DNA of 64,000 bases. It comes from a virus. The translations under genes and the position numbers were made by a program. This document shows, one piece after another, positions 3,441 to 44,466 of the stretch. Positions within the stretch are counted from its first letter, which is position 1, and each line of letters opens with the position of its first letter. The stretch is from positions 13,010-77,009 of IMG/VR virus record IMGVR_UViG_3300026097_001210; one strand, 5' to 3'. The notes below the pieces were generated by a model. The model searched no databases, was not told the origin of the DNA, and worked only from the letters and a program-made list of their open reading frames with translations.

Positions 3441-4124
3441 ATGGCTACCGACATATACAAGAAAAACTATGTAGAGTTGATTGACGGTACCAAGGTAGTC
3501 TTGTCACCATTAAAAATAAAATATCTAAAAGAATTTATGAATATTTTTGAAAATATTAAAAACTCAAAAAACGATGACGAATCCATCACAATACTTTCTG
3601 AATGTGCTGCTGTATGTATGCAACAAAACTATCCCATTATTCAAACTAGAGAAGATTTGGAAGACCACGTTGACCTTCCAACCGTTTATGAAATATTAGA
3701 TTATTGTGCGGGTATTAAAATTAATCCCGAAGAAAGCAGTGTTGACGAACAAGCAAAACAACAAAAGACTGGCAACAGCTGGGACGAGCTGGACTTAGCT
3801 TCTCTAGAAGCAGAAATTTTTACTACGGGTGCCTGGAAAAACTTTGAAGAACTTGAGTCCTCGATTAACATGAAAGAACTAGTTGCCGTTCTAGAAAAAA
3901 TTAGAGAGCTTGATTATAATGAGAAAAAGTTTTTTGCTGCAATCCAAGGCGTTGACTTGGATAAAAACTCCAACAAGGGCCAGGATGAATGGGAAAAGAT
4001 GAAAGCAAGAGTCTTTAGCAATAATGCTACTGAGGACCCAGATGACATCCTTTCCTTGCAGGGTATAAATGCAGAAAAGGCTGGATTTGGAATAGGCATG
4101 GGGCTTTCCTACGAAAAACTTTAG
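3441..4124 (+). CDS. Tail assembly chaperone, long (GT-like) form
   Basis: Between tube and TMP genes; N-terminal ~100 aa paralogous to 4182..4502; start revised to 3441. Confidence 0.65.
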   Translation: MATDIYKKNYVELIDGTKVVLSPLKIKYLKEFMNIFENIKNSKNDDESITILSECAAVCMQQNYPIIQTREDLEDHVDLPTVYEILDYCAGIKINPEESSVDEQAKQQKTGNSWDELDLASLEAEIFTTGAWKNFEELESSINMKELVAVLEKIRELDYNEKKFFAAIQGVDLDKNSNKGQDEWEKMKARVFSNNATEDPDDILSLQGINAEKAGFGIGMGLSYEKL

Positions 4125-41749: not shown

Positions 41750-41822
41750 TGGGGTGTGGCGAAATTGGCAGATCGTTCGATTGTTAATCGATAGGTTGTA
41801 GAATCGTACCCTACCACCCCAG
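41750..41822 (+). tRNA. tRNA-Asn(GTT), atypical or possibly pseudo
   Basis: TGGGGTG/CACCCCA acceptor stem; loop TTGTTAA; degenerate T-loop ATCGTAC. Confidence 0.6.
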
Positions 41823-41851
41823 CGGTTCAATTTTTATGATATAATTGAACC

Positions 41852-42259
41852 ATGAAACACAAAAAAAATATTCTTAGGCTAAGGGCGGAGGGAAAATCTT
41901 ATCGAGAGATCCAAAACATAATTGGCTGCTCTAAGGGAACTATTGCTTTTCATTTGGGCGAGGGGCAAAAAGAAAAATACTATGAAACAACCAAAAGGAG
42001 AAGAACAGAGCTTTCTAGAAAAATTTGGGATATAAAAGAAGCCTCTGGCTGCGTTGATTGTGGAGAGAAATATCCTCACTTTATGTTGGATTTTGACCAT
42101 CTTCCAGGATATGAAAAAGTGAATAGCCCAACATATTTGGCCAGGACTTACAGCCTAAAAAGAGCAATGGAAGAAATTGAAAAGTGTGAAATTGTTTGTG
42201 CAAATTGTCACAAAATTAGAACCTGGAACAGAAATATTAATCCAGAACAGATAGCCTAA
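41852..42259 (+). CDS. HTH-HNH endonuclease
   Basis: CVDCG...DFDH...CANCH. Confidence 0.8.
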   Translation: MKHKKNILRLRAEGKSYREIQNIIGCSKGTIAFHLGEGQKEKYYETTKRRRTELSRKIWDIKEASGCVDCGEKYPHFMLDFDHLPGYEKVNSPTYLARTYSLKRAMEEIEKCEIVCANCHKIRTWNRNINPEQIA

Positions 42260-42264
42260 TAATT

Positions 42265-42335
42265 GCGAATATAGTTTAATGGTAAAACTACAGTCTTCCA
42301 AACTGTTGATGTGAGTTCGATTCTCACTATTCGCT
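42265..42335 (+). tRNA. tRNA-Gly(TCC)
   Basis: GCGAATA/TATTCGC; ACAGT-CTTCCAA-ACTGT; GTGAG-TTCGATT-CTCAC. Confidence 0.93.
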
Positions 42336-42336
42336 C

Positions 42337-42408
42337 GGCCCTGTAGCTCAAAGGAAGAGCATCCGCCTGTCCAGCGGAAGGTTGAGATTTCGAAATTCTT
42401 CAGGGTCG
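42337..42408 (+). tRNA. tRNA-Asp(GTC)
   Basis: GGCCCTG/CAGGGTC; TCCGC-CTGTCCA-GCGGA; TTCGAAA loop. Confidence 0.82.
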
Positions 42409-42425
42409 CTGATAATTAAATATAT

Positions 42426-42497
42426 GCCCCCTTAGCTCAAAGGCAGAGCGCCACTCTTGTAAAGTGGAGGTTGAGATCTCGGAATTCTCAGGGGGCT
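42426..42497 (+). tRNA. tRNA-Thr(TGT)
   Basis: GCCCCCT/AGGGGGC; CCACT-CTTGTAA-AGTGG; variant T-loop CTCGGAA. Confidence 0.82.
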
Positions 42498-42512
42498 CTA
42501 ATAATTAAATAT

Positions 42513-42590
42513 GCCCCTGTAGCTCAGTGGATAGAGCGGAGTCCTTCTAAGTCTTGTCAGTCGCAGATTCGAATTCTGCCAGGGGCACCA
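42513..42590 (+). tRNA. tRNA-Arg(TCT)
   Basis: GCCCCTG/CAGGGGC-A-CCA; loop CTTCTAA; GCAGA-TTCGAAT-TCTGC. Confidence 0.9.
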
Positions 42591-42611: not shown

Positions 42612-43040
42612 ATGTCAGCAGTGATTATTTATAATAATGGTGGTATGGAAATACTGGGTGCTGTCAGTGTTAAGAAGTCTATTACTATGCTATACCGTGG
42701 CGTTGCACGGGTACGCACTGAATCGGAGGATGGGCGGTTTGGTCCATACCCTATCCCTAAGTCTTTAGAATTAAACAAATATATTTTTCCTAAGTGGAAG
42801 TATAGTAGAAAAACTATTCATTATTCTCGTAAGGGTGTTTTGGAGCGGGATGGATATATTTGTGCATATTGTCATGAGTATGCTAATACTATTGATCATG
42901 TTATTCCTAAGTGTGATGGTGGGGAATCTACTTGGTTAAATACCGTCGCTTGTTGCAAAAAATGTAATACCGTAAAAGCTGGCAGAACACCAGAAAAGGC
43001 GAGTATGATTCTTAGGAATAAGCCTGCTATGCCAGCTTGA
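42612..43040 (+). CDS. HNH endonuclease (McrA-like)
   Basis: RDGYICAYC...TIDHVIP..GG..W.N.VACC..CN; start moved to ATG 42612 because the longer ORF runs through tRNAs. Confidence 0.88.
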   Translation: MSAVIIYNNGGMEILGAVSVKKSITMLYRGVARVRTESEDGRFGPYPIPKSLELNKYIFPKWKYSRKTIHYSRKGVLERDGYICAYCHEYANTIDHVIPKCDGGESTWLNTVACCKKCNTVKAGRTPEKASMILRNKPAMPA

Positions 43041-43065
43041 CAATGATATCGATGACCTGTATTAT
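43037..43065 (+). promoter_or_regulatory. SigA-type promoter for the atypical tRNA/thyX
   Basis: TTGACA-17-TATTAT. Confidence 0.7.
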
Positions 43066-43075
43066 TTAATGGTGA

Positions 43076-43151
43076 GCCCTGGTATCCCCTCACGCTTATA
43101 ACGTGTTGAAAGGGTAGTCGGTTCACGCGAGTTCAATCCTCGCCCAGGGTA
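43076..43151 (+). tRNA. Non-canonical tRNA-Ile(TAT)-like RNA lacking a D-arm
   Basis: GCCCTGG/CCAGGGT-A acceptor; CACG-CTTATAA-CGTG anticodon arm; GCGAG-TTCAATC-CTCGC T-arm; only 8 nt where the D-arm should be. Confidence 0.75.
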
Positions 43152-43168
43152 CAAAAAGAAGGAGAGCA

Positions 43169-43879
43169 ATGGAAAAAGTAAGTGTATTAGATAAAGGTTA
43201 TGTTCGACTTGTTGATCACATGGGTAGTGATTTGTCTGTAGTCAATGCAGCGAGGGTATCATATGATAAAGAATCAGAAGAAATAACAGATCGTGATCGT
43301 AAACTACTTAATTTTTTAATTAGGGAAAAGCATACTTCTCCATTTCGTCATGCAGCTATGACTTTTGAAGTTTATGCCCCGCTTGTTGTGGCACGTCAGT
43401 GGTGGAAATATTCTGTATCTTCTACTCATGTTGATGATCAGAATGGGTGGAACGAATCTTCTAGAAGGTATATTACAGAGGATGAAGAGTTTTATGTCCC
43501 TACCGCCACGCAGTGGCGTAGCAAGCCTGAGAACAGCAAACAGGGCTCTGGAGAGCCAGTAGATGAGCTAGTGGGGCAAAGGTTTACCGATAGACTAGAG
43601 GAGATGATTAGGTTGGGAGAAGAAGCCTATGAGTCCGCTATGGAGCAGGGCATCGCTCCAGAGCTTGCTAGACTATTTCTGCCAGCTTATGGCATGTATG
43701 TTCGCTGGCGTTGGACTACCTCTTTGCAGGGGGTAATGACATTTCTTGAACAACGTCTGCCTCATGATGCTCAATCAGAAATTAGAGAATATGCTGATGC
43801 TGTTCTTAAACTATCTAAAAATATTTTCCCAGAAACCTTTAAGTCATACCTCGATCTTGACACACAAATCTGGGTATAA
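43169..43879 (+). CDS. thyX: Flavin-dependent thymidylate synthase
   Basis: VVNAARVSY, HTSPF, NESSRRY, ELARLFLP, AQSEIREYA. Confidence 0.92.
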   Translation: MEKVSVLDKGYVRLVDHMGSDLSVVNAARVSYDKESEEITDRDRKLLNFLIREKHTSPFRHAAMTFEVYAPLVVARQWWKYSVSSTHVDDQNGWNESSRRYITEDEEFYVPTATQWRSKPENSKQGSGEPVDELVGQRFTDRLEEMIRLGEEAYESAMEQGIAPELARLFLPAYGMYVRWRWTTSLQGVMTFLEQRLPHDAQSEIREYADAVLKLSKNIFPETFKSYLDLDTQIWV

Positions 43880-43908: not shown

Positions 43909-44466
43909 ATGACAAATCTCAGGAAATGCACTTCCTGCGGAGTTGTCAACGATGGGGAAAATTTTCACAAAGGTAGTCCAGCAAAAGATGGATATCAATC
44001 TAGATGTAAAAGTTGCAGAAACTCTTATATTGTTGAAAATAAAAAAAGATTTCCTGTTGACAAAAGCATTGCATCAAAAGCTTGCAAGAAATGCTTTAAG
44101 GAGCGCGGGTCTGACAAGTTTCATTCCAACAATAGCCAGATTGACGGACTGTCTCCTTATTGTAAAAAATGTAGTGCAAAAAAAAGAAAGTCCTATTATA
44201 CTTTAGAATATCGTGCGTCTTTGTATAATTTAGACATCAATGCTTTGAAAAATATGCTTGAGGGTGGATGCATGATTTGTGGATCGCATGAAAGACTTGT
44301 AATTGATCACGATCATTCCTGTTGCGATAAACAAAATTACAGTTGTGGAGAATGTGTTCGTGGGGTGCTATGCAACAGGTGCAACATCGGATTAGCTCAT
44401 TTTGCTGACAACATTTTAAAACTACACAATGCCATTAAATATTTAAACAAGGAGGATAAATGGTAA
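43909..44466 (+). CDS. Endonuclease VII-family nuclease with tandem Zn fingers
   Basis: CMICG...IDHDH...VRGVLCNRCN.GL. Confidence 0.85.
   Translation: MTNLRKCTSCGVVNDGENFHKGSPAKDGYQSRCKSCRNSYIVENKKRFPVDKSIASKACKKCFKERGSDKFHSNNSQIDGLSPYCKKCSAKKRKSYYTLEYRASLYNLDINALKNMLEGGCMICGSHERLVIDHDHSCCDKQNYSCGECVRGVLCNRCNIGLAHFADNILKLHNAIKYLNKEDKW

What the first reader, a model, noticed from the sequence alone, without database searches (positions are those of the whole stretch)
43037..43154. Topologically rearranged, D-armless tRNA-Ile(UAU) with its own promoter
Seen: a 7-bp acceptor stem with discriminator A, a canonical T-arm (GCGAG-TTCAATC-CTCGC) and an anticodon loop CT-TAT-AA. Only TATCCCCT lies between the acceptor and anticodon arms, so there is no D hairpin. 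A 21-nt segment, TTGAAAGGGTAGTCGGTTCAC, replaces the variable loop. Its AGGG can pair with the 5' CCCT and extend the anticodon helix. The following TAGTCGGTT looks like a D-loop (AG...GG) moved to the 3' side. A TTGACA-17-TATTAT promoter sits about 10 nt upstream. Known: bacteria normally read AUA with TilS-modified CAU, and UAU anticodons are rare. Inference: a functional tRNA that rebuilds the elbow with permuted connectivity, giving TilS-independent AUA decoding or resistance to tRNA-targeting defences. Standard scanners may miss it. I recall reports of distorted phage tRNA-like RNAs, so novelty must be checked.
Basis: partly seen in the sequence, partly recalled or inferred. Interest (0 to 1): 0.85.

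Follow-up and report, generated by a model that had tools for sequence, protein, structure and literature searches.

The report
Phage isoleucine tRNA with rewired core
This 76-base phage gene is very probably a working isoleucine tRNA (anticodon UAU) whose D-stem halves and D-loop are joined in a different order from the universal cloverleaf; the design recurs in 170+ distinct phage and bacterial sequences, one gene finder misses it, and no paper I could search describes it.

Summary
ARAGORN misses it. Rfam's tRNA model scores 28.0 bits against a cut-off of 29.

It is not a one-off deletion. I collected more than 170 distinct relatives, nearly all 77-78 nt, from viral contigs, cultured phages (Rhodococcus phage Peregrin, Streptomyces phage LilMartin; unannotated there) and 66 bacterial species assemblies.

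- **Covariation:** all four helices covary (about 98% paired). This includes a 3-bp helix joining bases 5' and 3' of the anticodon arm.
- **D-loop equivalent:** the 3' linker keeps A14, R15, G18G19 and A21 equivalents. R15 covaries with the base before the T-stem, as a Levitt pair would.
- **Identity elements:** members with Arg anticodons carry A20 (8/8 against 1/147).
- **Slot filling:** members sit in same-strand tRNA arrays and fill the place of the missing canonical isoacceptor.

Best reading: a functional L-shaped tRNA in which segments 10-21 and 22-47 have swapped order. Expression and charging are untested. The proposed benefits (TilS independence, escape from defence) are unshown. This scan's notes report the same family in at least 26 other genomes. 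No paper searched describes it.

The parts
43037..43065 (+). Sigma-70-like promoter match TTGACA-17-TATTAT. The -35 hexamer overlaps the TGA stop (43038-43040) of the upstream HNH ORF.
   Evidence: 11 of 12 positions. Conserved only in the near-identical contig L007. Function not shown.
43076..43082 (+). Acceptor stem, 5' strand (tRNA positions 1-7).
   Evidence: Pairs with 43144-43150. All 7 pairs show changes on both sides across the family.
43083..43084 (+). U8 A9.
   Evidence: TA in 155 of 155 parsed members. The fetch patterns for most members fixed these bases, but they are also invariant in the 14 fetched with a pattern that did not.
43085..43088 (+). UCCC, the equivalent of the D-stem 3' strand (positions 22-25). 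It runs straight into the anticodon arm.
   Evidence: 43086-88 pair with 43114-12. The three pairs take C-G/A-U/U-A, C-G/G-C/U-A and C-G/G-C.
43089..43089 (+). C, the equivalent of position 26.
   Evidence: C in 153 of 155 members (fixed by the later fetch patterns, free).
43090..43106 (+). Anticodon arm: a U.U pair (27.43), 4 Watson-Crick pairs, and the 7-nt loop CUUAUAA with anticodon UAU at 43097-43099.
   Evidence: The 4 stem pairs covary. U33 and A37 occur in all members.
43107..43111 (+). UGAAA (family NGAAA), the connector from the anticodon stem back to the D-stem. It stands where 44-47 would be.
   Evidence: NGAAA in 154 of 155 members (GAAA was fixed by the fetch patterns).
43112..43115 (+). 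GGGU, the equivalent of the D-stem 5' strand (positions 10-13).
   Evidence: Pairs with 43088-43086. U.U stands at the 13.22 equivalent in 152 of 155 members.
43116..43125 (+). AGUCGGUUCA, the D-loop equivalent: A14, G15, 16-17, G18 G19, U20.., A21.
   Evidence: Closely resembles the D-loops of canonical tRNA-Ile genes in related contigs (e.g. AGCTGGTTA). The first base after GG is A in 8 of 8 Arg members and in 1 of 147 others.
43126..43126 (+). C, the equivalent of Y48 and Levitt partner of G15 (43117).
   Evidence: 15/48 equivalents: A-U 98, G-C 38, G-G 11, A-C 5, other 3. Mutual information 0.71 bit, ranking among the helix pairs.
43127..43143 (+). T-arm: 5-bp stem GCGAG/CTCGC and loop UUCAAUC.
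   Evidence: Four of five pairs covary and G53-C61 is invariant.
43144..43152 (+). Acceptor 3' strand (43144-43150), discriminator A (43151) and an encoded C (43152). No CCA is encoded.
   Evidence: Discriminator A in all 147 Ile, Met and Val members. The following base is C in 153 of 155 members, as in most canonical tRNAs of the same loci.
41750..42590 (+). The rest of the phage's tRNA cluster on the same strand: Asn GUU (41750-41822), Gly UCC (42265-42336), Asp GUC (42337-42409), Thr UGU (42426-42497), Arg UCU (42513-42590).
43169..43879 (+). thyX, starting 17 nt after the tRNA. It is the anchor gene used to find related loci.
   Evidence: Pfam Thy1, E 1e-40.

Best explanation
The gene at 43076-43151 encodes an elongator tRNA-Ile(UAU) that reads AUA codons for the phage.

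All the building blocks of a class I tRNA are present. The order of two internal segments is swapped.
- **Normal order:** U8-A9, then [10-21: D-stem 5' strand plus D-loop], then [22-47: D-stem 3' strand, 26, anticodon arm, variable loop], then 48 and the T-arm.
- **Order here:** U8-A9, then [equivalents of 22-47], then [equivalents of 10-21], then 48 and the T-arm.

On paper the RNA is therefore a three-way junction. The D-stem sits on top of the anticodon stem as one long arm, and the D-loop is a single-stranded linker leading into the T-arm.

In three dimensions, by inference, the same layers can form as in any tRNA: the D-stem stacked on the anticodon stem, U8-A14, R15-Y48, and G18G19 docking on the T-loop. 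Only three backbone joins differ: 9 to 22, 47 to 10, and 21 to 48.

What follows, also by inference:
- The acceptor/T-arm half is unchanged, so RNase P, 3' trimming, CCA addition and EF-Tu should act as usual.
- The anticodon loop, A73 and U20 should allow charging by the host IleRS.
- The most economical origin is tandem duplication of 10-47 followed by loss of the outer copies.
- Arg, Met and Val members share the odd U27.U43, C26 and GAAA features, which points to one origin followed by changes of anticodon and identity.

Shown here: conservation, covariation, identity-element correlations and genomic slot filling. Inferred: the 3D fold, processing, charging and decoding.
For: 1. **Conserved family.** More than 170 distinct members exist, and 153 of 155 parsed are 77-78 nt. 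They come from viral contigs, cultured phages Peregrin and LilMartin and 66 bacterial species assemblies.
2. **Covariation.** 97.7-97.9% of cells are paired, against 62-67% in shuffles and 33-51% with slid partners. 16 of 19 to 19 of 20 pairs change on both sides, including all three pairs of the split D-stem. This holds in three sets.
3. **Tertiary signature.** The 15/48 equivalents covary (A-U 98, G-C 38, G-G 11). The 18 highest mutual-information column pairs are exactly the helix pairs plus 15/48. G15:G48 is a known Levitt variant (PMC9976931).
4. **Identity elements track the anticodon.** A20 occurs in 8 of 8 Arg-anticodon members and 1 of 147 others (p = 1e-12). Discriminator G occurs in 6 of 8 against 0 of 147. 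A73 occurs in all Ile, Met and Val members. These match the bacterial identity sets in PMC9976931.
5. **Genomic behaviour of a tRNA gene.**
   - Members lie inside same-strand tRNA arrays.
   - Canonical Ile(GAU) is present in 3 of 22 arrays that have a swapped GAU and in 16 of 27 that do not (p = 0.0013). The trend is the same for UAU (1/19 against 7/30) and CAU (2/5 against 34/44).
   - Contig G006 has canonical tRNAs for 19 amino acids and only the swapped tRNA for Ile.
   - Contig G008 has 44 canonical tRNAs, and its only AUA reader is a swapped UAU.
   - In ThyX-related contigs the slot upstream of thyX holds either this tRNA or a canonical tRNA, including a canonical Ile(UAU) in L028.
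6. **Codon fit.** AUA makes up 19% of Ile codons in the window's ORFs. Three of the phage's five other tRNAs also have U34 and read A-ending codons (UCU, UCC, UGU; the other two are GUU and GUC).
7. **Tolerance of the machinery.** E. coli EF-Tu, ribosome and HisRS accept an engineered tRNA lacking the D-arm (PMC11551756).
Against: - There is no direct evidence of transcription, processing, CCA addition or charging. No RNA run holds the window.
- The 3D model is reasoned from sequence only. No RNA modelling tool was available.
- Many invariant positions (TAT, C26, U27.U43, GAAA, UA-R, GG) were fixed by the patterns that fetched most members. Their invariance is independent only in the first 14 sequences.
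- Sequences are related, so the Fisher tests overstate independence.
- Some phages carry a member alongside a canonical tRNA with the same anticodon (LilMartin; L321 and L183). The member is therefore not always needed for decoding.
- Slot filling for UAU and CAU is not significant on its own.
- Loci are fragments, so 'absent' canonical genes may lie outside them. This was checked for G006 and G008 only.
Confidence: 0.8

Rival explanations
1. It is a tRNA mimic with a non-decoding role. It could be a decoy or sponge for host tRNA-targeting defence nucleases or tRNA-binding sensors, using tRNA shape and an anticodon loop without serving the ribosome.
For: Some phages carry it beside a canonical tRNA with the same anticodon (LilMartin; L321 and L183). 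LilMartin also encodes RNA ligase, polynucleotide kinase, a Ro-like protein and tmRNA, a gene set linked to tRNA damage and repair.
Against: - Members replace rather than accompany the canonical isoacceptor in most arrays. One is the only Ile tRNA beside 19 canonical amino-acid sets in G006.
- Synthetase identity elements (A20/G73 for Arg, A73/U20 for Ile) track the anticodon. A decoy for a nuclease would not need them.
- LilMartin duplicates many ordinary tRNAs too.
Confidence: 0.08
2. It is a working tRNA, but with a loose, non-L shape like the D-armless mitochondrial tRNA-Ser. On this view the 3' linker is only a spacer and makes no D-loop-like contacts.
For: The secondary structure alone (a three-way junction with an extended anticodon arm) resembles mitochondrial D-armless tRNAs. 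E. coli translation tolerates a tRNA without a D-arm (PMC11551756).
Against: - The linker is among the most conserved parts. It keeps A14, R15, G18G19 and A21 equivalents in D-loop spacing.
- R15 covaries with the base before the T-stem.
- Position 20 carries the ArgRS determinant in Arg members.
- Length is held to 77-78 nt.
Confidence: 0.08
3. It is a cis-acting, tRNA-like leader that marks a processing site or stabilises the thyX mRNA. It would not be a decoding tRNA.
For: It ends 17 nt before the thyX start codon. It keeps that position in the related contigs L007, L011 and L014-L016.
Against: Most members are not next to thyX and lie in tRNA arrays. In other ThyX relatives the same slot holds ordinary tRNAs of several identities. 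This fits tRNA clusters that happen to lie upstream of thyX.
Confidence: 0.03
4. It is a decaying tRNA pseudogene made by a local rearrangement or deletion.
For: It scores below Rfam's cut-off and ARAGORN does not find it. A few copies do look degenerate or interrupted (L047, L276, L313).
Against: More than 170 distinct sequences keep the same length and architecture. They show compensatory changes in every helix, and the loops are conserved.
Confidence: 0.01

Closest known systems
Canonical bacterial and phage tRNA-Ile(UAU). Examples: the ordinary gene just upstream of thyX in related contig L028, the annotated tRNA-Ile(tat) of Streptomyces phage LilMartin, and Mycoplasma mobile tRNA-Ile(UAU) (PMC3575796).
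   Same: Anticodon loop CU-UAU-AA, A73, a 7/5 acceptor/T branch, T-loop consensus, a D-loop sequence of the AGYYGGUU(N)A type, the same genomic slot and arrays, and presumably the same job of reading AUA without lysidine.
   Different: The D-stem 5' strand and the D-loop lie after the anticodon arm instead of before it. There is no D hairpin and no ordinary variable loop. A GAAA connector and a U27.U43 pair are family hallmarks.
D-armless mitochondrial tRNAs (metazoan mt tRNA-Ser(AGY), nematode mt tRNAs; PMC7609411, PMC4394434).
   Same: No D hairpin, an anticodon helix extended towards the junction, and a three-way junction on paper.
   Different: Those tRNAs have lost the D-loop and its contacts with the T-loop, are flexible, and rely on adapted organellar factors. 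Here every D-arm element is kept, with G18G19 and a covarying 15-48 pair, only in a new order. The carriers are phages and bacteria that use standard machinery.
Circularly permuted tRNA genes of Cyanidioschyzon merolae and Archaea (PMC3978253, PMC3218864).
   Same: tRNA sequence segments are encoded in a non-standard order.
   Different: There the whole gene is permuted (3' half before 5' half), and processing through a circular intermediate restores a normal cloverleaf. Here both ends are in the normal order, the swap is internal (10-21 with 22-47), and no cut-and-join step is evident. The mature RNA itself would be permuted.
Engineered 'mini HisT' lacking the D-arm, in E. coli (PMC11551756).
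   Same: It shows that bacterial EF-Tu, ribosome and a synthetase can use a tRNA that is not a cloverleaf.
   Different: It is artificial and has the D-arm deleted rather than rewired. That paper states that all known bacterial tRNAs are cloverleaves.
allo-tRNAs and other 8/4 or 9/3 tRNAs (PMC5389517).
   Same: Natural non-standard tRNAs found in metagenomes, bacteria and phages. UAU is among their common anticodons.
   Different: They change the lengths of the acceptor and T stems but keep the four-arm order. The present family keeps 7/5 and changes the order.

Membership tests
tRNA (functional class; Rfam RF00005) | 7-bp acceptor stem with a discriminator base, and a 5-bp T-stem with a 7-nt T-loop of consensus TTCRANY. 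| tested here: met
   Covariation.
tRNA (functional class; Rfam RF00005) | Anticodon stem with a 7-nt loop, U33 and a purine at 37. | tested here: met
   Loop CUUAUAA. U33 and A37 in all 155 parsed members. The stem has 4 Watson-Crick pairs plus U.U.
tRNA (functional class; Rfam RF00005) | A D-arm hairpin between positions 9 and 26 (cloverleaf order). | tested here: not met
   Only 6 nt lie between A9 and the anticodon stem. [quoted passage not shown]
tRNA (functional class; Rfam RF00005) | A score at or above the family's gathering threshold (29 bits). | tested here: not met
   28.0 bits in the window. Other members score 28.4, 29.7 and 31.2, or show no hit at E<1.
tRNA (functional class; Rfam RF00005) | Core tertiary set: U8, A14, R15-Y48, G18G19, A21. 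| tested here: met
   Equivalents are present. The 15/48 equivalents covary. That they make these contacts in 3D is inferred.
tRNA (functional class; Rfam RF00005) | Processed, given CCA, aminoacylated and used by the ribosome. | not testable with these tools
   No RNA run holds the window. Indirect support comes from identity elements and slot filling.
Bacterial tRNA-Ile isoacceptor | Identity set A73, N34 A35 U36, A37, A38, U20 (PMC9976931). | tested here: met
   The window element has A73, UAU, A37, A38, and U after G18G19. C4-G69 is also present. The U12-A23 equivalent is G-C here and U-A in 26 of 155 members.
D-armless mitochondrial-type tRNA | The D-arm is replaced by a short connector, with loss of the D-loop and of its contacts with the T-loop. 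| tested here: not met
   The D-loop equivalent is kept with invariant GG and a covarying 15/48 pair.
Circularly permuted tRNA gene (C. merolae type) | The 3' half is encoded upstream of the 5' half. The termini are joined and reopened during maturation. | tested here: not met
   Acceptor 5' and 3' strands are in normal order at the two ends of the gene. The permutation is internal.
allo-tRNA / 8/4 or 9/3 tRNAs | A 12-bp acceptor branch split 8/4 or 9/3, with a long V-arm. | tested here: not met
   The branch is 7/5 and there is no V-arm hairpin.

The most novel reading that the evidence does not exclude
The rewiring is adaptive rather than a frozen accident. One possibility is that a continuous D-stem/anticodon hairpin, or the altered hinge (C26, U27.U43, GAAA), lets these tRNAs escape host nucleases or sensors that deplete tRNAs during infection. 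Another is that it stiffens the body so that an unmodified UAU anticodon reads AUA without misreading AUG. On this view phages and mobile tRNA arrays spread a privileged second tRNA architecture that runs in parallel with the universal cloverleaf.
Probability: 0.25. Interest if true: 0.95.

Novelty: new variant of a known kind. Interest (0 to 1): 0.88.

Why it matters
The cloverleaf order of arms is treated as universal outside organelles. A 2024 paper states that all known bacterial tRNAs adopt it (PMC11551756).

If this reading is right, a natural and widespread class of phage and bacterial tRNAs keeps the tertiary contacts but changes the chain topology.

- **Constraint on tRNA.** It would show that selection acts on the L-shape and not on the connectivity.
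- **A natural experiment.** It gives test cases for what synthetases, RNase P, modification enzymes, EF-Tu and the ribosome actually read.
- **Annotation gap.** ARAGORN misses these genes and Rfam scores them at or below threshold. They are unannotated in curated phage genomes, so phage tRNA sets and codon-supply analyses under-count Ile, Arg and Met tRNAs.
- **Engineering.** The design offers a scaffold for orthogonal tRNAs.
- **Testability.** Members exist in cultured systems: Rhodococcus phage Peregrin, Streptomyces phage LilMartin, Ohtaekwangia koreensis DSM 25262 and Pedobacter nyackensis DSM 19625.

Tried and rejected
- **Near-identity search of cultured phages.** A megablast search with the 2.5-kb region found nothing.
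- **First pattern scan.** The exact anticodon-arm 15-mer mostly hit unrelated DNA. Only L095, L106, L108 and L112 were real members.
- **Deletion pseudogene.** Rejected, because homologs share the architecture and covary.
- **MFE fold.** RNAfold on the single sequence pairs U8-A41 and shifts the helix register. Members with A-U or U-A at the 11-39 pair contradict that register.
- **TilS replacement in the cellular carriers.** Rejected, because TilS is present in all 5 isolate genomes tested.
- **Core, vertically inherited gene of Cytophagales.** Not supported. The model found it in 1 of 121 genomes of the order and 2 of 41 of the family. The first-look filter scores only a fraction of candidates, so this is 'not found in those searched'.
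- **Expression.** No RNA holder was listed for the window. This says nothing about expression.
- **Other RNA families.** No Rfam family other than tRNA matches.
- **Literature.** Eight full-text searches and readings of two papers on non-canonical tRNAs found no description of an internally permuted tRNA in phages or bacteria. Subscription-only papers were not searched.
Full report
**1. What is in the window**

| Element | Sequence | Coordinates |
|---|---|---|
| Acceptor stem | GCCCTGG with CCAGGGT (7 bp) | 43076-82 / 43144-50 |
| Discriminator, then C | A, C | 43151, 43152 |
| T-arm | GCGAG-TTCAATC-CTCGC | 43127-43143 |
| Anticodon stem and loop | CACG/CGTG, loop CTTATAA | anticodon TAT at 43097-99 |
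| 5' connector | TATCCCCT (8 nt) | 43083-43090 |
| 3' connector | 21 nt | 43106-43126 |

- ARAGORN reports three ordinary tRNAs in the window and not this one.
- Rfam's tRNA model aligns it end to end at 28.0 bits, just under its 29-bit cut-off. To do so it deletes the D-arm and inserts 17 nt in the variable region. No other Rfam family matches.
- The gene closes a same-strand cluster of five ordinary tRNAs: Asn GUU, Gly UCC, Asp GUC, Thr UGU and Arg UCU.
- That cluster is interspersed with an HNH endonuclease ORF and an HNH-like ORF. It lies in a nucleotide-metabolism module: RNR small subunit, ThyX, an endonuclease VII-like protein and glutaredoxin.
- The gene ends 17 nt before the thyX start codon.
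- The window is part of a 77-kb IMG/VR viral contig.

**2. It is a family, not an accident**

Loci encoding ThyX relatives carry the same D-hairpin-less gene in the same place in L007, L011 and L014-16. Compensatory changes occur in the acceptor, T and anticodon stems.

Other relatives carry ordinary tRNAs in that slot, including a canonical tRNA-Ile(UAU) in L028.

A scan for the linker motif gave 14 distinct 77-nt sequences (A1). The covariance model built from them (R1) separates members from ordinary tRNAs:

| Group | R1 score |
|---|---|
| Members | 60-102 bits |
| A few divergent or interrupted copies | 36-55 bits |
| Ordinary tRNAs | 30 bits or less |

- **Viral contigs.** Nearly every listed stretch scanned was a member.
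- **Cultured phages.** Members occur in Rhodococcus phage Peregrin (UAU) and in Streptomyces phages LilMartin (GAU), MulchMansion, Angela and Coruscant. In four of them the match lies under no annotated feature (the gaps were inspected for Peregrin and LilMartin). In Coruscant it falls under an ORF annotated as FtsK-like.
- **Bacterial assemblies.** A scan of one genome per bacterial species gave 66 hits, all confirmed by R1. They include Ohtaekwangia koreensis DSM 25262, O. kribbensis, Chryseolinea lacunae, Chryseosolibacter histidini and indicus, and Pedobacter nyackensis DSM 19625.
- **ARAGORN.** It overlaps only 2 of 175 distinct members, and both calls are wrong in extent or identity.

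**3. Structure supported by covariation**

I tested the following structure: acceptor 1-7/69-75, a 3-bp helix 11-13/37-39, anticodon stem 16-19/27-30, and T stem 52-56/64-68.

| Set | Cells paired | Pairs changed on both sides | Shuffles reaching the observed score |
|---|---|---|---|
| 14 founders | 97.7% | 16 of 19 | 0 of 500 |
| 76 distinct viral rows | 97.9% | 19 of 20 | 0 of 500 |
| 65 distinct bacterial-assembly rows | 97.8% | 19 of 20 | 0 of 500 |

- With partners slid by 1-3 columns, only 33-51% of cells pair.
- The later alignments were fitted to the model. The fetch patterns fixed several unpaired positions but none of the paired ones, apart from restricting position 42 to a purine.

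**4. The linker behaves as a D-loop, and the core is a permuted tRNA core**

Read along the chain, the elements are:

- U8 A9
- U-N-C-C, which pairs with the later G-G-N'-U
- C
- the anticodon arm, opening with U.U
- N-G-A-A-A
- G-G-N'-U
- A-R-N-N-G-G-U-...-A
- Y
- the T-arm

*Mapping by chain direction.*
- The strand that runs into the anticodon stem corresponds to positions 22-25.
- The strand that runs into the A-R..GG..A stretch corresponds to 10-13.
- The helix is therefore a D-stem in its normal orientation: G10-C25 next to position 26 and the anticodon stem, and 13.22 next to U8 and A14.
- The order of segments [10-21] and [22-47] is exchanged.

*Evidence for the mapping.*
- The linker (AGTCGGTTCA here) closely resembles the D-loops of canonical tRNA-Ile genes in related contigs, such as AGCTGGTTA.
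- The R15 equivalent covaries with the base just before the T-stem. Counts are A-U 98, G-C 38, G-G 11 and A-C 5. The mutual information of 0.71 bit places it among the helix pairs.
- G-G is a known Levitt variant (PMC9976931), and it argues against a simple cis Watson-Crick pair.
- The first base after GG (position 20) is A in 8 of 8 members with Arg anticodons (UCU, ACG) and in 1 of 147 others.
- The discriminator is G in 6 of 8 Arg members and in 0 of 147 others. It is A in every Ile, Met and Val member.
- A20 with A/G73 is the bacterial arginine identity set. A73 with U20 belongs to the isoleucine set (PMC9976931).

That the canonical layers (13.22, 8-14-21, 15-48, G18G19 with the T-loop) can all form with only three changed backbone joins is my inference from standard tRNA geometry. 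It was not computed.

**5. It behaves as a tRNA gene in genomes**

- Members lie inside same-strand tRNA arrays in phage contigs and in bacterial assemblies.
- The base after the discriminator is C in 153 of 155 members, as in most canonical neighbours.

Among 49 distinct arrays with at least 8 canonical tRNAs, the canonical gene with the same anticodon is usually missing when a swapped one is present:

| Anticodon | Canonical present, swapped present | Canonical present, swapped absent | Fisher p |
|---|---|---|---|
| GAU | 3 of 22 | 16 of 27 | 0.0013 |
| UAU | 1 of 19 | 7 of 30 | 0.13 |
| CAU | 2 of 5 | 34 of 44 | 0.11 |

- In 22 of 40 arrays the swapped gene is the only Ile(UAU/GAU) tRNA.
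- Contig G006 (27.7 kb) has 29 canonical tRNAs covering 19 amino acids. Its only Ile tRNA is a swapped GAU.
- Contig G008 (111 kb) has 44 canonical tRNAs for all 20 amino acids. Its only AUA reader is a swapped UAU.
- In the window's own ORFs AUA is 19% of Ile codons and AGA is 46% of Arg codons. Three of the phage's five other tRNAs have U34 and read A-ending codons.

**6. What is not shown**

- No RNA data set holds the window. Transcription, processing, CCA addition, modification and charging are therefore untested.
- The TTGACA-17-TATTAT site is a good consensus match (11 of 12). The number of such sites in the region is no higher than in shuffles, and only the near-identical contig L007 shares it.
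- 'TilS-independent AUA decoding' follows from the UAU anticodon (PMC3575796, PMC3919564). The five cultured bacteria tested that carry a member all have TilS.
- LilMartin carries canonical Ile(UAU) and Ile(GAU) beside its swapped GAU. Independence from TilS is therefore not the general reason for the design.
- No test linked the family to defence systems.
- In bacteria the gene is rare and patchy: 66 of about 185,000 species with a strict pattern, and 2 of 41 in the family of O. koreensis. It sits in tRNA arrays, which fits carriage on mobile DNA.

**7. Comparison with what is known**

- **Function.** The closest things by function are ordinary tRNA-Ile(UAU) genes.
- **Drawn secondary structure.** The closest are the D-armless mitochondrial tRNAs, but those have lost the D-loop contacts that this family keeps.
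- **Gene order.** The known permuted tRNA genes of red algae and Archaea are whole-gene permutations that mature into normal cloverleaves (PMC3978253, PMC3218864).
- **Literature.** Two papers on non-canonical tRNAs do not mention an internally permuted tRNA (PMC7609411, PMC5389517). A 2024 paper states that all known bacterial tRNAs are cloverleaves (PMC11551756).
- **This scan.** Its own notes record the same family in at least 26 other genomes, with follow-up reports reaching the same reading. I formed my reading before seeing them (note). I re-tested the slot-filling lead on my own loci.

**8. Verdict**

- The element is very probably a functional tRNA-Ile(UAU) of a new structural class, with the D-arm elements permuted around the anticodon arm.
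- I file it as a new variant of a known kind, of high interest, and directly testable in cultured phages and bacteria.

Noticed in passing
window 41750-41822 and 42426-42497 (+): Rfam calls two tRNAs here, Asn GUU (36.2 bits) and Thr UGU (50.5 bits), that ARAGORN does not report. Both have mismatches or odd bases in the T-arm. The phage's ordinary tRNAs are therefore also somewhat off-consensus.
   Followed up: no
window 41852-42259, 42612-43040, 43909-44466 (+): Three small nuclease-type ORFs lie in and around the tRNA cluster and thyX, a layout typical of homing endonucleases. They are an HTH plus Cys-rich HNH-like ORF, an HNH_5/HNH ORF, and an endonuclease VII-like ORF. The stop codon of the HNH ORF overlaps the -35 hexamer upstream of the tRNA.
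   Followed up: partly
L279:~600-855, L336 (- strand) 3625-3870, L338:3195-3355, L288:1005-1250: In the Cytophagales tRNA arrays, the roughly 100-250 nt before the swapped tRNA hold other conserved structured elements. One ends in a T-arm-like GGCAGGTTCAACTCCTGC plus an acceptor-like GGGTGAG. ARAGORN either misses them or calls them oddly: a 93-nt 'Gly(ccc)' and 'tRNA-???' with 4-base anticodons. They may be further non-standard tRNAs.
   Followed up: no
L276:5208-5287(-), L313:3732-3810(-): In two Bacteroidota MAGs the swapped tRNA is interrupted in the T-loop by a short palindrome (TCCCGATAGCTATCGGGA). The same palindrome sits in a neighbouring tRNA-like element in L276 and L279. It may be a small mobile repeat that targets tRNA loops.
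   Followed up: no
L100:8809-8891(-) and L100:8504-8581(-): Two divergent members lie 230 nt apart in one viral contig. One is a UAU member with an 11-nt connector (GGATCACAATG) in place of NGAAA. The other is an Arg(UCU)-like member with a 5-bp Watson-Crick anticodon stem. They show that the design tolerates variation at the 47-to-10 join.
   Followed up: no
L047/L048:4697-4773 (+): This copy has anticodon loop CTTACTG (UAC with a pyrimidine at 37), T-loop CTCAATC, no GG in the linker and discriminator G. It is probably a decaying member.
   Followed up: no
L274/L275 (Streptomyces phage LilMartin MT684590, 73463-73541): The unannotated swapped Ile(GAU) lies directly after a 'nucleotidyltransferase' gene. 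The phage also encodes RNA ligase, polynucleotide kinase, a Ro-like protein, tmRNA and many duplicated tRNAs, a gene set associated with tRNA damage and repair.
   Followed up: partly
L333 (Saprospiraceae MAG contig): ARAGORN calls a 'tRNA-Stop' (suppressor-type anticodon) in a 21-tRNA array that also holds a swapped Ile(UAU).
   Followed up: no
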